Shown here piece after piece: positions 54,153-60,140 of a DNA stretch of 64,000 nt (position 1 is its first letter; the number at the start of each line of letters is the position of its first letter). Under the pieces are notes generated by a model, which was not told where the DNA came from, made no database searches, and saw only the letters and a list, made by a program, of their open reading frames with translations. The DNA is taken from the NCBI GenBank assembly GCA_964016885.1, contig CAXHJY010000264.1, positions 124,001 to 188,000 of the forward strand, in the 5' to 3' direction. Source of the stretch: Eledone cirrhosa (Eukaryota). Made by a program: the position numbers and the translations under genes.

Positions 54153-54315
54153 AGGGAGTGTAACTTGGAGTTACTGTAAGGTTCACCTTGTTATCTTATA
54201 TATATATATATATAAACTTGAAGACTGCCGACCGGACTAGAAACTGTTAAATATTTGGCCACCTTCTTGTCTCCCGGCCTTTTCAGCTCCATGGATTTTG
54301 TCTATTATATTTCGA

Positions 54316-54373
54316 ATACCTGATGATGTAACCGGATTCATACTGAACCCAGTCATTGAAATGATCATAGTAT
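54316..54373 (+). ncRNA. Type I hammerhead ribozyme motif, copy 1
   Basis: ATAC-CTGATGA-[stem II with TTCA-TAC-TGAA]-GAAA-TGATCA-TA^-GTAT. Palindromic stem III ATGATCAT. AATAAA at 54374-79. The base of stem II is imperfect. Confidence 0.72.
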
Positions 54374-55331
54374 AATAAACCTTTTAAGGAATTACACCAG
54401 TCCAGCCTCCTGTTATTTTATAATAATTAACTCCGTACTCGCACCAGCAACAACGCAAACGAAGACAGATGAGTTGCATTACGTCGAGTGCTCTCCCTAA
54501 TATTACATCGAGGTTGACCACACGGAATGACCAGTTCTATCCAGTGGTGAACCAACAAACCTAAATGAATAAAGCTCCAGGAAATGTCGAGCGTTTCCAG
54601 ATGTAGGAAGGAACAGGGGCCTTGGCACCAGCATACAGCTATCGTCAACATGGGACTAACTGCACACCATTCGGATTTTGGCTGCATTAAGCTATGTCTA
54701 CCACCCTCCCGGACCATGCATTGCTGCTTCCGCCAGGAACACTCAAACTCCGTCAGACCTCACAGATTATTTTAAAAAATCAACATATTCTATTATACCC
54801 TGTCTTGTATTGACTGAATTCTCTATCCTATATTTCAAGGTTTTGGGATTCACATGGAAAATTAAGACTCGAACCTACACTACGTGTCACCTGATACCAC
54901 TCCTACTCTTCCATCCTCTCTATATTTATATATTCTCCAACCGTGTTATCTATTGCTTATTTGCTACACCTTAATCTCTATTTTATTTCTTCTGTATTTT
55001 GATTTCTTCGATATGTTTTTATTTACTTCCATTTTTACTCCCACAATTACCACTCTGGGTATGACTACATTTTATTTATGTATTTATTCACTTTACTCTC
55101 CTTATATACTTATCCTTGTACTCATCTGTTACCTAAAATTAACATACGATCCTAGAATATTACTTTCTGTACCCTTTATATCTGTTTATCTTTAAACACT
55201 CCCCATACCCACTCAGGAATCACATTACATATAACCCGGGCTAACTGGGGACTAAATATAGTATTCTTACCCATTTCATCAGATTTTGCCACTTTTAAAC
55301 TTCACATCACGGGTGTGAATAACTAATAATC

Positions 55332-55533
55332 GTTTGGTGCACTCGATGATCCAACTGATGTGGCGGCTTTCCCGATTGCACGCCAGGCACTCGAGTCGAT
55401 CAGCCTTGCTAGAGTGCTTGGAAAAATAAATTTCCCTTTCTTTCGGTAAACGAAAATACTCGGAACGGTTGTTTCGCCCTGGGGCCCTGTCGGGCTTGGA
55501 ATCCGCCGTGCTACCGGTTATTGACCGCCAAAC
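55332..55533 (+). ncRNA. Unknown ~200-nt structured RNA, copy 1
   Basis: Nested stems GTTTGGTG/CGCCAAAC, TGATC/GGTTA, TGTGGCGG/CCGCCGTG, CCCGAT/GTCGGG, CCAGG/CCTGG, CAGCC/GGTTG, GAGTG/TACTC. Apical hairpins GGAAA-AATAAA-TTTCC and TTTCG-GTAAA-CGAAA. Confidence 0.7.
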
Positions 55534-55635
55534 TGTACCTTTAAATTCTAGGCTTAATCATAACTTTAAAATTTATCATGCCTCCTTCTACTAGCCCTTT
55601 AACTAAATCCCCCACCAGTGTGAATAACTAATAAT

Positions 55636-55834
55636 CGTTTGGTATACACGATGATCAGCCGACGGTAGCGGGCTTCCCGCTAACACCCCGGCAACAGTTA
55701 ACATTCCTGGAGTGCTCGGAAAAAATAAATTTCCCTTTCTTTCGGTAGACGAAAATACTCGGAACGGTTGACACGTCATTGGGCCCCGGGTGGGCTGAGA
55801 GTCCGCAACGACGCTGGTTACAGACCGCCAAACG
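55636..55834 (+). ncRNA. Unknown ~200-nt structured RNA, copy 2
   Basis: Same fold with different stem sequences: CGTTTGGT/GCCAAACG, TGATCAGC/GCTGGTTA, GCGGGCT/AGTCCGC, CCCGCT/GGTGGG, CCCGG/TTGGG, GTTAAC/GTTGAC, TTCC/GGAA, GAGTG/TACTC. Same two apical hairpins. Confidence 0.7.
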
Positions 55835-56320
55835 GGCTTAATCTTAACTTTATATTCTACCCTGAAACTTTATCGTGACTATCAATAATACACTTAACCT
55901 TTTCATAAACTCCTCCGTCTGTAAATTCTTTAACTAAATCTTACTTTTCTAATCTCATCTTAAATGACATCTTTTAATTCTAAACATAAATGTTACCTTT
56001 CTAATCGTTAATCGTAATTTCTGACCCTACAATGACAAATCATTATATATAGCTTTGTTAAAGATATATGGTTTTTGAAAAAATATATTTCTTAGCACTT
56101 CTGACCAACTTCAGTGTAACCTGATCCCACCGCTGGCCTCTCTCCATGACAGGGTGGTTGTAGCGCACTATGAGCTTACGCCCCTTCACCAGAAAGACAT
56201 AAGAAAATTTAGTAGTCCTCACTTGAAGACGGCCGACCGGACTAGAAACTGTTAAATATTTGGCCACCTTCTTGTCTCCCGGCCCTTTCAGCTCCATGGA
56301 TTTTGTCTATTATATTTCGA

Positions 56321-56378
56321 ATACCTGATGATGTAACCGGATTCATACTGAACCCAGTCATTGAAATGATCATAGTAT
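56321..56378 (+). ncRNA. Type I hammerhead ribozyme motif, copy 2
   Basis: Identical to 54316-54373 and exactly 2005 nt downstream. Confidence 0.72.
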
Positions 56379-56566
56379 AATAAACCTTTTAAGGAATTAC
56401 ACCAGTCCAGCCTCCTGTTATTTTATAATAATTAACTCCGTACTCGCACCACCAACAACGCAAACGAAGACAGATCAGTTGCATTACGTCGAGTGCTCTC
56501 CCTAATATTACATCGAGGTTGACCACACGGAATGACCAGTTCTATCCAGTGGTGAACCAACAAACC

Positions 56567-56602
<36 letters not shown>

Positions 56603-58020: not shown

Positions 58021-60140
58021 TCTTCTGGTTTTATAATTTCACAAAGTTTTACCAATAGAGAGAGAGTCGGTTTCTAACATAGACACAAGACTCTCATTGG
58101 AATTTACACAACATCAACTAGGTAGATATGTATGTATGTCTGCATGTGTAGATATGGATGTTATTGTATGTTTTGAGTTGTATGTGTGCATGTGTATATG
58201 CTTTGTATCTGTATATGTTTATATGCAGTTATTAGATGCAACATTTTTGGAATGTTTTACATATTTTTACTATTCCATTAATGGATTGTACTTGTAATTT
58301 CCTAACTAGTTGTCTTCTTTCTGTTCCTGTGAAGCCCAGCTTCTCAAGATTTGTATTGAGGCAGTTACTAACATATCCCAGTGCCCCAATAATCACAGGC
58401 ATAAATCTGAAGGTGTAATCAGGGTGGAGTATCTGCAGATTTCTCATTAGTTCTGCATAAATATTCTCCTTTTCGCTAATCGTTAATATTATATTGGCAT
58501 CTGCTGGGCAGCTAACTTCGACTACGGTGCATGCCTTCTTTTTCCTGTCCCATATCACAATATCTGGTCTGTTATGCCTTCATTTTATTGGGGTTTTTAC
58601 TGGAACATTCCACCAGTACTCTTTCATAATATGTCTAAGGATTTCCTCCACATTGCTGTAGCTTTTAATGTGTTTATTATCGGGGCTATCTTTTTTACGA
58701 ACTGCATTGTACAGTGTTTTGGCCACTACATCATGCCTCATAGGTAGATAGTACCGCGATGACATCTTTGGACAGCTGCTGATGACATGGGTGATATCCT
58801 CGATGTTAGTTCTGCAGAGTCTGCACTTGTTATCACATCTAGGTGTTTTGCCTGCATCCCTATCTCTTTTGTGAATCAGGTATTTCGTGTTAATCTCCTG
58901 TTCTTGGATTGCAAAAGCGTATCCTTCAAAGTGGGAGCCAATATAGCGGTTGTTGGTCCAAGATAGACTACTTTCCTTATCTATATTACTCTCACTCTGG
59001 AGCTTCTTGGCAACATATCCATGCATGATTTTTGCCGATAAGCATGCAGTTTTTCATCCATGGATTCACTGCGATATGCTGAGCGACATCCCTGGGTGAG
59101 AGTTTTTGATTATCACACAGGGAATATCTCTCGAGGAGTTCCTTCCCAACTCTCATGATCTTATCTGTTTCATGCAGATAGACTTGCTCGAGAAACGGGC
59201 TCCTACGCTTCGAGTTTCGTAGATGTTGTCGGAGAGATATGATGAGACATTCAAATGCTGTCTGGATTGATGTTAGGCCTCTGCCTCCCTGCTACATTTC
59301 AAGTAAATCCTATATCCTTTGAGAACGTTGTAACCAGGTCAAGATTTTTCTTCATACCATCCATGTTCTTGGCATAGAGTTTCAGATCGTCCACTAAGAA
59401 ATTATGGGTTAGGTTCGATTTTGTGTCCTCCTGTGAGCCAATGATGTATCCCTCACATTTCTTGAGCAGAAAGAACAAGGGTTTTAATGACAAGATGAAC
59501 AATATCACAGAGAGACTGTCCCCCTGAAATATACCCCTGCAATATTTTATTTTATCAGTGAAAATAGAGTCCTCCCTCTCTGTCTTTAACCTTAGGATAG
59601 TAGTCCCAGAAGAAGACAGCTGCTCTATGGCTCTGACAATAATGTCTGGGACTTTAGCATGTCGGAGGGCCTATATCTTCCAAGAGTGGGGAACAGAATC
59701 GAAAGCTTTCCTGCAGTCCAGCCAGACTGTAGCCACATTCCTCCGACATCGCAGTTTTATTGATTAGGAATTGTTCAGCACACACCCAAACCCTTTTCTT
59801 TCCAGATGCTTGTTCATCTGTGATGATGTTATTATTTTCACGGTGATCTTGGAGGAATGGGTTCAGGCAGGCTGTATACATCTTATACATCAGGTTCTGG
59901 CATGCAATGGGTCGGTAGTTTTTTGCCAAGTGGGTGTCTTTGTTCTTGGGGACCAGTAATGTTTGTGCTAATGTCAACCATTCTGGTATAAGTGTATCTC
60001 CCTTAAGAACTTGTTGGTAGAGGTCAGTAAGATACCTCCGATAGAATATCAGTTTTTTGTACCAGTAGCCGACAATCATGTCTCTTCCTGGTGTTTTCTT
60101 ATCTTGGAGTTTTCCTATCACAGTCTCAAGGGTACCCTCA
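58021..60140 (-). mobile_element. 5'-truncated, decayed R4/Dong-like non-LTR retrotransposon (RT + CCHC + restriction-like endonuclease)
   Basis: KTPGRDMIVGYW, NYRPIACQN, FLVDDLKLY, CRLC..EDITHVISSC, RHD, PDIVIWD..VVEVSCP...KENIY. Frameshifts and an internal deletion. The 3' end abuts (TACA)n. Confidence 0.9.

What the first reader, a model, noticed from the sequence alone, without database searches (positions are those of the whole stretch)
55313..55834. Tandem pair of unknown ~200-nt rod-shaped RNAs with compensatory base changes
Seen: two copies at a 305-bp period share an identical leader (GTGTGAATAACTAATAATCGTTTGGT) and a nearly identical apical domain. Their intervening stems have diverged yet still pair: CCCGAT/GTCGGG vs CCCGCT/GGTGGG, CCAGG/CCTGG vs CCCGG/TTGGG, CAGCC/GGTTG vs GTTAAC/GTTGAC. 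The many G-U pairs work only on the + strand, the same sense as the hammerheads. Topology is a long irregular helix topped by a junction with two hairpins. I do not recognise it as tRNA, 5S, an snRNA, 7SL, RNase P/MRP or vault RNA. Inference: selection is acting on RNA structure, for example an RT-recruitment, export or IRES-like element, or a new ribozyme.
Basis: partly seen in the sequence, partly recalled or inferred. Interest (0 to 1): 0.88.

Follow-up and report, generated by a model that had tools for sequence, protein, structure and literature searches.

The report
Repeatedly doubled RNA module in retrozyme
A non-coding jumping element, present in thousands of mostly partial copies in this animal genome, carries a 220-base segment predicted to fold as a long rod with a branched tip. 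The segment matches no catalogued RNA family, was duplicated at least four times, and likely serves as a docking site for the protein that copies the element.

Summary
The pair is real (55313-55533 and 55618-55833, 75% alike, 305 bp apart). It is not two stand-alone RNA genes. It lies inside a 2.0-kb non-coding Penelope-type element with hammerhead-bearing terminal repeats, (TA)n targets and 5' truncation. The hammerhead has 6,769 exact hits, and two patterns for the module's tip have 439 and 721.

Majority sequences of 19 of 20 subfamily units fold on their own to the same rod with a three-way junction, on the + strand. The tip is 87% conserved against 64-65% for the arms. Elements carry one to three modules, from at least four separate duplications.

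The rod keeps its shape better than neutral change allows in the distant lineages.

There is no Rfam match, no coding signal and no sign of self-cleavage. No RNA run was available. Copy ends match those of Hydra-clade elements in this genome, the likely partner.

Best reading (0.4): a docking platform that captures the partner's enzyme. An export or stability element comes next (0.3). The scan has no earlier look-alike of this sequence.

The parts
54216..56571 (+). Whole insertion: one 2,005-bp unit plus a repeated 351-bp end, set between (TA)n tracts; non-autonomous Penelope-type element (retrozyme)
54216..54566 (+). Upstream pseudo-LTR, 98.9% identical to the downstream one
54220..54266 (+). 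Predicted hairpin upstream of the hammerhead; stem letters change together between families (second copy 56225-56271)
54316..54373 (+). Type I hammerhead motif with a U-U pair in place of G10.1-C11.1; predicted cut after 54369, not tested
54429..54492 (+). Start of the 'tail' after copy-end site 1: RCUC...GAGY stem, and both strands of the module's tip helix (UACUCG at 54436, GAGUGCU at 54486)
54574..54592 (+). GCUC...GAGC hairpin just after copy-end site 2, placed as in Hydra-clade elements of this genome
55313..55533 (+). Module A: leader 55313-55331, predicted rod 55332-55533
55406..55465 (+). Conserved tip of module A: UUCC/GGAA, 2-nt bulge, GAGUG/YACUC, two hairpins (this copy has a private change at 55408)
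55618..55833 (+). Module B: leader 55618-55636, predicted rod 55637-55833; private 7-nt deletion in the 5' arm
55704..55764 (+). Conserved tip of module B
56221..56571 (+). Downstream pseudo-LTR with the second hammerhead motif (56321-56378); family copy ends fall near 56430 and at 56571

Best explanation
The two segments are duplicated copies of one conserved module inside a non-coding Penelope-type jumping element, and each is predicted to fold into a rod whose invariant tip likely binds the reverse transcriptase-endonuclease of a Hydra-clade partner, so that the RNA would capture an enzyme it cannot encode. SHOWN: the element's anatomy; conservation of the tip; at least four duplications; retention of arm-to-arm pairing in folding models; two copy-end sites arranged as in Hydra-clade elements. 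INFERRED: transcription from the upstream repeat; folding in the cell; the identity of the partner; protein binding at the tip; a gain from a second copy through avidity. The rod would act as a stalk of roughly fixed length and free sequence that holds the tip clear of the U-rich linkers. Copying would then start just upstream of one of the two RCUC/GAGY stems in the downstream repeat.
For: The tip averages 87% identity against 65% and 64% for the arms over 20 majority sequences. It is as conserved as the hammerhead region (82 and 71% against 89 and 82%), while spacers fall to 40-63%. Many invariant letters sit inside helices, which suggests sequence-specific recognition. The rod re-forms after large remodelling. 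Arm-to-arm pairs exceed the mean of composition-matched neutral re-dealing in 15 of 15 subfamilies, reached by at most 3 of 60 replicates in 8 of 15. Duplications: the E pair, the A/B pair, a third copy in G, and a re-duplication in a lineage that had dropped to one copy. Of 30 hammerhead-picked places, 3 reach the module zone and all 3 carry a module. Copy ends fall at two sites: 67 and 73 of 166. Each site lies just before an RCUC...GAGY stem, as in Hydra-like elements, where 9 of 12 ends precede hairpin 1 and 3 precede hairpin 2. Both strands of the tip helix recur in the element's own tail (GAGUR in 72 of 94 long copies). A perfect GAGUG/YACUC hairpin sits in the tail of 6 of 21 autonomous regions (shuffles at most 0.0016). 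PMC11167929 cites earlier work that the tail is needed for endonuclease recognition, and predicts a dimeric protein.
Against: No binding, folding or expression was measured. The module was not found in 34 loci holding autonomous elements, so those partners work without it. The tail hairpin of autonomous families is variable: exact in 6 of 21 related regions, loose in 14, a different sequence in 7. The 5-bp match was noticed after the fact. The terminal repeat already holds plausible start signals, so an extra binding site is not obviously needed. No autonomous element sharing the terminal repeat was found. Fixed-register covariation is weak, and tip hairpin 1 shows no two-sided change. One family has thrived with a single module.
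Confidence: 0.4

Rival explanations
1. The module binds a host protein that exports, localises or protects the RNA. The RNA would lack a cap and tail after hammerhead cutting, and the module would work like the transport elements of retroviruses and mouse retrotransposons.
For: It has the same conservation, duplication and rod evidence as the best reading. Its place, a few hundred bases before the 3' repeat, resembles that of the MusD element (PMC4588558, part 1 read). Absence from 34 autonomous loci fits an acquired host-binding aid. That tandem transport elements work better is recalled, not checked.
Against: No sequence or Rfam match to known transport elements. Hammerhead cutting is untested, and this motif has a non-standard first pair in stem II. 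It does not explain the recurrence of the tip helix in the tail.
Confidence: 0.3
2. The tip is the core of an undescribed ribozyme that cuts or joins RNA.
For: It has a compact, invariant three-way junction, and it lies in an element that already carries a hammerhead motif.
Against: The 5' ends of 50 truncated copies are spread out. No base holds more than 3, and those 3 are at the start of the leader that A and B share. Junction linkers and both loops vary between families. Internal cutting would destroy the 2-kb template, yet 22 of 90 copies run on more than 350 bases past both modules.
Confidence: 0.08
3. The structure is a neutral relic: an old inverted repeat carried along and duplicated by template slips.
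For: Fixed-register covariation equals the neutral expectation in 7 independent pairs. RNAalifold fails on raw copies. Energies of some subfamilies are ordinary (3 of 20 with z above -2). A/B chimeras show that slips occur.
Against: The tip is far more conserved than the arms and spacers. Pairing is kept at 53-63% identity and after deletions. Every long family examined keeps at least one module.
Confidence: 0.08
4. The module is a translation element (IRES or cap-independent enhancer) inherited from a coding ancestor, or a small RNA released from the transcript.
For: Its Y shape and 200-nt size resemble such elements (recalled). The A/B leader holds stop codons in all three frames (window sequence).
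Against: No reading frame is kept: variable columns fall 31, 31 and 27 on the three codon positions, and there is no remnant of a partner protein. The stop cluster, an AAUAAA loop and a B-box-like word are each lost in other families. The structure is maintained in non-coding lineages.
Confidence: 0.08

Closest known systems
Animal non-LTR retrozymes (PMC7229834, passages read; bioRxiv 10.64898/2026.07.22.740005, parts 1-3 of 5 read)
   Same: Non-coding, with a type I hammerhead at each end of the unit, head-to-tail arrangement and a proposed dependence on Penelope-like elements.
   Different: The unit is 2,005 bp, against 150-450 bp and 51-972 bp in those papers. It is dispersed and 5'-truncated rather than in long arrays. 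It carries an internal structured module that the parts I read do not describe.
Hydra-clade Penelope-like elements (PMC8557442, passages and section 11 read)
   Same: (TA)n targets, hammerhead in the terminal repeat, inverted 5' copies. In this genome there are also long U-rich 3' regions of 1.7-2.3 kb and two copy-end sites before GCUC/GAGC hairpins.
   Different: The element has no reading frame and no detectable sequence homology; the U-rich match is reproduced by reversed controls. The module is absent from the autonomous loci tested.
Anole Poseidon element PAc (PMC11167929, parts 1-2 of 4 read)
   Same: Two start sites of reverse transcription downstream of the hammerhead, with a tail between them.
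   Different: In PAc the needed RNA is confined to the start of the reading frame. No distant upstream module is described in what I read.
Retroviral and retrotransposon RNA transport elements: RRE, CTE, MusD MTE (PMC4588558, part 1 of 2 read; details of RRE shape recalled)
   Same: A structured cis element of a few hundred bases inside a retroelement RNA; a long stem topped by a branched tip (recalled for the RRE).
   Different: No sequence or Rfam match, a different class of element, and export not tested.
Dimeric Alu (search listing only; mechanism recalled)
   Same: A non-autonomous element built from a duplicated structured module thought to help it capture a partner's enzyme.
   Different: The module is not 7SL-derived by Rfam, has no conserved polymerase III boxes, and sits inside the element.

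Membership tests
Non-autonomous Penelope-like element / animal retrozyme | Direct terminal repeats (pseudo-LTRs) from partial tandem copies | tested here: met
   351-bp repeats, 98.9% identical; run-on junctions in other copies
Non-autonomous Penelope-like element / animal retrozyme | Type I hammerhead motif in each repeat | tested here: met
   Core and three stems present; pair 10.2-11.2 is G-U, A-U or G-C in 120 of 124 copies; stem I changes on both sides; first pair of stem II is U-U in 122 of 124
Non-autonomous Penelope-like element / animal retrozyme | No coding capacity | tested here: met
Non-autonomous Penelope-like element / animal retrozyme | Fixed 3' end, 5' truncation, inverted 5' pieces, microsatellite target | tested here: met
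Non-autonomous Penelope-like element / animal retrozyme | Self-cleavage and circular RNA | not testable with these tools
   No RNA holder listed; needs bench work
Partner: Hydra-clade element | Autonomous elements with RW(K/R), DKT and CxCX5C motifs present in the same genome | tested here: met
   Motifs read in the L112 frame against the definition in PMC8557442 section 11; 14,167 candidates, 150 scored
Partner: Hydra-clade element | Shared terminal-repeat sequence with an autonomous family | tested here: not met
   None in 30 upstream flanks and 30 full-length loci of Hydra-like and Neptune-like elements; only the layout of hairpins and copy ends is shared
Any Rfam family (tRNA, 5S, snRNA, 7SL, RNase P/MRP, vault, Y, IRES, known ribozymes) | Covariance-model match over the module | tested here: not met
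   0 at gathering level in the window. One 22.6-bit hit, HTH-XRE, E 0.26, cut-off 49.8. In 6 other loci only microRNA-precursor hits far below cut-off
SECIS / box C/D kink-turn RNA | Conserved AUGA...GA or C and D boxes at the base of the stem | tested here: not met
   The words are lost in the B2, G and F forms
Polymerase III SINE or VA-like RNA | Conserved A and B boxes and a T-run terminator | tested here: not met
   The B-box-like word occurs only in A-type units, and no common terminator follows (read by eye)
Self-cleaving ribozyme | A single cleavage site, which would show as a pile-up of copy 5' ends | tested here: inconclusive
   No pile-up in 50 ends; an indirect test, and cleavage itself was not assayed
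RNA transport element (RRE/CTE/MTE-like) | Promotes nuclear export in cis | not testable with these tools
   Needs a reporter assay

The most novel reading that the evidence does not exclude
This is an undescribed class of RNA motif: a bait that copies the enzyme-binding helix of Penelope-type retroelements and holds it on a long stalk. A parasitic non-coding RNA would use it to outcompete the coding element for its telomerase-like reverse transcriptase, and would gain by multiplying it. The 20-plus natural variants would then map what such an enzyme reads in RNA, a counterpart to the junction of telomerase RNA that binds its own enzyme.
Probability: 0.25. Interest if true: 0.85.

Novelty: new variant of a known kind. 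Interest (0 to 1): 0.58.

Why it matters
How non-coding retrozymes get hold of a Penelope-type enzyme is open; the July 2026 preprint says the mechanism remains to be worked out. Here is a bounded 60-nt tip on a stalk, with over 20 natural variants and four duplications, plus a named candidate partner clade with intact frames in the same genome. Binding, export and cleavage tests can be set up directly. If the module proves to be an export or stability element instead, it would show how a hammerhead-bounded RNA persists in animal cells. The element class itself is known.

Tried and rejected
Rfam at gathering and E-value level gave nothing relevant. RNAalifold on 58 raw copies returned 16 unrelated pairs; I put this down to decay after insertion.

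Coding readings. A leucine-rich-repeat-like peptide on +, a GIY-YIG-like peptide on -, and a 'PNGLN' tail were rejected: there is no codon-position bias, and stops and frameshifts differ between families; tblastn with 7 autonomous proteins gave best E 0.27.

Motif readings. A poly(A)-signal hairpin, a three-frame stop cassette, a STAR-protein or branch-point word, a kink-turn, SECIS, tRNA-like boxes, a loop-loop contact and a triple helix were each rejected because other families lose them (read by eye).

Partner search. Autonomous frames next to L018, L099, L043 and L109 are separate insertions: the 29 other members of the L099 frame's family lack our repeat. Similarity to a Hydra 3' region is compositional.

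Outside collections. Two patterns in metagenome contigs and two in viral contigs gave 0. No RNA holder listed. Three runs of one sample, kept as contigs, show about tenfold summed depth over the tip of A; this is no copy number and I do not lean on it.

Copy-end test. The planned test of 5' ends in 3' arms gave 15 of 38 (p 0.021) overall but 10 of 31 (p 0.18) in the later 60 loci. The wider contrast, 3' arm plus tip against 5' arm, gave 26 to 5 (p 0.001; later loci 20 to 5, p 0.012). It was chosen after seeing the data, and the spacer is also rich in ends, so it is only a hint that the rod is folded during copying.

Covariation was not counted branch by branch along the tree.

Full report
CONTEXT. 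The window lies in a 3.0-Gb genome of 1,796 contigs. The finding sits in a 2,356-bp insertion, 54216-56571, between (TA)n tracts, with 351-bp direct repeats 98.9% alike. Each repeat holds a type I hammerhead motif on the + strand. The pair drew 1,588 candidates, of which 40 were scored; the 39 besides the window's own are 86-91% alike. The repeat drew 3,141. An exact hammerhead word has 6,769 hits, and two overlapping words of the module's tip have 439 and 721, with 0 for reversed controls. Copies share a fixed 3' end at (TA)n, are cut at the 5' side and often carry an inverted piece. These are the marks of Penelope-like elements described in PMC8557442. No reading frame is kept. The element is a non-autonomous Penelope-type element, a long retrozyme.

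THE OBSERVATION. The leader, the period and every named stem strand are present. The window's copies are worn: z about -2 each, and copy A's best fold is not the rod. RNAalifold on 58 raw copies fails. The signal appears when copies are grouped. From 386 profile hits I kept 303 distinct units with full flanks, of which 41 stayed outside clusters of three or more. Twenty subfamily majority sequences were folded one by one. Eighteen passed the script's check for the tip helix, and a nineteenth shows the same fold by eye; z is -2 or lower for 17 of 20 on + and 2 of 20 on -. On 8 majority sequences the consensus energy is -59.3 against -37.6 +/- 4.4 for column shuffles (0 of 150), with 10 two-sided pairs against a mean of 3.7. 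The reverse strand also gives 10 such pairs, but only -41.2. On 33 real copies the 25-pair upper part is 87% paired against 34-53% when slid. It has 20 cells with two-sided change (0 of 500 shuffles) but only 5 such pairs (30 of 500).

HOW STRONG THE COVARIATION IS. With structures taken from one subfamily and tested on independent pairs of others, 11-26 of 41-62 changed pairs were kept, against 14-28 expected; slid controls scored lower, so the expectation is generous, but the excess is small. What is kept is the shape. Re-dealing the same substitutions at random left 16-42 arm-to-arm pairs on average, against 36-58 in the real sequences. The real value was higher in 15 of 15 cases and was reached by at most 3 of 60 replicates in 8; the cases share history. 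The most distant unit, 53-63% alike, has a 21-pair helix of different sequence below the same tip. Forms that lost about 20 bases of one arm, or the whole leader, re-pair. The rod therefore slides in register and repairs itself.

ANATOMY AND HISTORY. The constant part is the tip: a short helix, a 2-nt bulge, the helix GAGUG/YACUC and two small hairpins. It averages 87% identity against 65% and 64% for the arms. Along six families it rivals the hammerhead, while spacers fall to 40-63%. The loops, the linkers and the leader vary. Elements hold one, two or three modules. The tree of 20 units shows a duplication in family E, the A/B duplication seen in the window and a third copy in family G; two long branches are of unsure place. 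A G-derived form has one remodelled module, and a further family has doubled that one again, 499-512 bp apart. Of 30 places picked by the hammerhead alone, the 3 long enough to reach the module zone all have a module.

THE PARTNER. The genome holds abundant Hydra-like elements (RW, DKT and CxCX5C motifs) and a Neptune-like family (the clade label is mine). None of those tested shares sequence with our element or holds the module (34 loci). The layout, however, is shared with the Hydra-like ones. In seven of them 1.7-2.3 kb of non-coding sequence separates the frame from the hammerhead, against 205 bases in the Neptune-like family; our element has 1,759. Their copies end just before one of two GGCUC...GAGCU hairpins (9 and 3 of 12 ends). 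Ours end at two sites, 67 and 73 of 166, each just before an RCUC...GAGY stem; the first stem was matched in 48 of 94 long copies. This mirrors the two start sites of the anole element in PMC11167929. A Hydra-clade partner is likely but inferred.

MECHANISM. Invariant letters inside helices, a stalk of free sequence and repeated doubling point to a protein-docking site. The two strands of the tip helix also occur in the element's tail, and a hairpin with this helix sits at the matching place in 6 of 21 autonomous regions, loosely in 14. On that lead I favour capture of the partner's enzyme (0.4). A host export or stability factor is close behind (0.3). Against the first: the match is short, was noticed after the fact and is variable, and partners manage without the module. 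A ribozyme (0.08) has no support from copy ends. Neutral carriage (0.08) is opposed by the tip's conservation. Translation or small-RNA roles (0.08) lack a frame or conserved promoter words. Truncation is commoner in the 3' arms and tips than in the 5' arms, as expected if the rod is folded during copying, but the planned test was not significant in the later loci.

WHAT IS KNOWN. There is no Rfam match and no hit in metagenome or viral contigs. Six paper searches aimed at the element, combining retrozyme, hammerhead, Penelope, octopus or cephalopod, Hydra clade and conserved RNA structure, listed no paper describing such a module. The library lacks most subscription papers, Repbase and Dfam were not available, and I opened no supplements; the Hydra sequences in the supplements of PMC8557442 could bear on the partner. 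Papers seen: PMC8557442 (passages, section 11), the 2026 preprint (parts 1-3 of 5), PMC11167929 (parts 1-2 of 4), PMC4588558 (part 1 of 2), and PMC7229834, PMC4209133 and PMC10886601 (passages). The Alu, RRE and CTE comparisons are largely recalled. The scan's index has no look-alike by sequence; it lists other, shorter retrozyme families in this genome.

VERDICT. This is a real, conserved and apparently undescribed RNA module in a known kind of element. Its function is untested and no expression data were available. It is a new variant of a known kind; interest 0.58.

Noticed in passing
window 54316-54373 and 56321-56378: The hammerhead has U-U where G10.1-C11.1 is normal (122 of 124 copies), and a C-C pair within stem II, yet it is the most conserved stretch of the element. 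It may be slow, dimer-dependent or protein-assisted.
   Followed up: partly
window 54220-54266 and 56225-56271: A hairpin about 100 bases upstream of the hammerhead keeps its stem with different letters in six families; its role is unknown.
   Followed up: partly
window 54566-54607: A 13-codon mini-frame starts at the end of the repeat. Between the window's family and L085 many differences are synonymous, but the frame is shifted or lacks ATG in the G, H and B2 types. It may be a relic of an upstream frame, or a by-product of the hairpin there.
   Followed up: partly
L145-L164: Hydra-like autonomous elements here have frames of about 830-915 residues (stop to stop) and non-coding 3' regions of 1.7-2.3 kb, longer than the 'under 3 kb' elements in PMC8557442. 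Two GGCUC...GAGCU hairpins mark their copy ends.
   Followed up: partly
L150, about 100-300 bases after the stop codon: The 3' region of one Hydra-like family is predicted to fold into a long rod topped by several hairpins (-71 kcal/mol). It is not homologous to the module and was not tested for conservation.
   Followed up: no
L033, L062, L086, L108: Single chimeric modules with an A-type 5' part and a B-type 3' part, apparently from deletion between the two copies.
   Followed up: no
G000:C3 89.3-90.4 Mb and C4 77.58-77.61 Mb: The tip pattern recurs at regular spacing (about 125-170 kb, and 4-7 kb), which suggests copies carried inside larger tandem duplications.
   Followed up: no
window 1-29996: A 30-kb satellite of about 1,209 copies of a 24-bp unit fills the first half of the window.
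   Followed up: no
window 58300-60000, minus strand: A LINE-like reverse-transcriptase stretch appears to lie downstream of the element (read by eye); not analysed.
   Followed up: no
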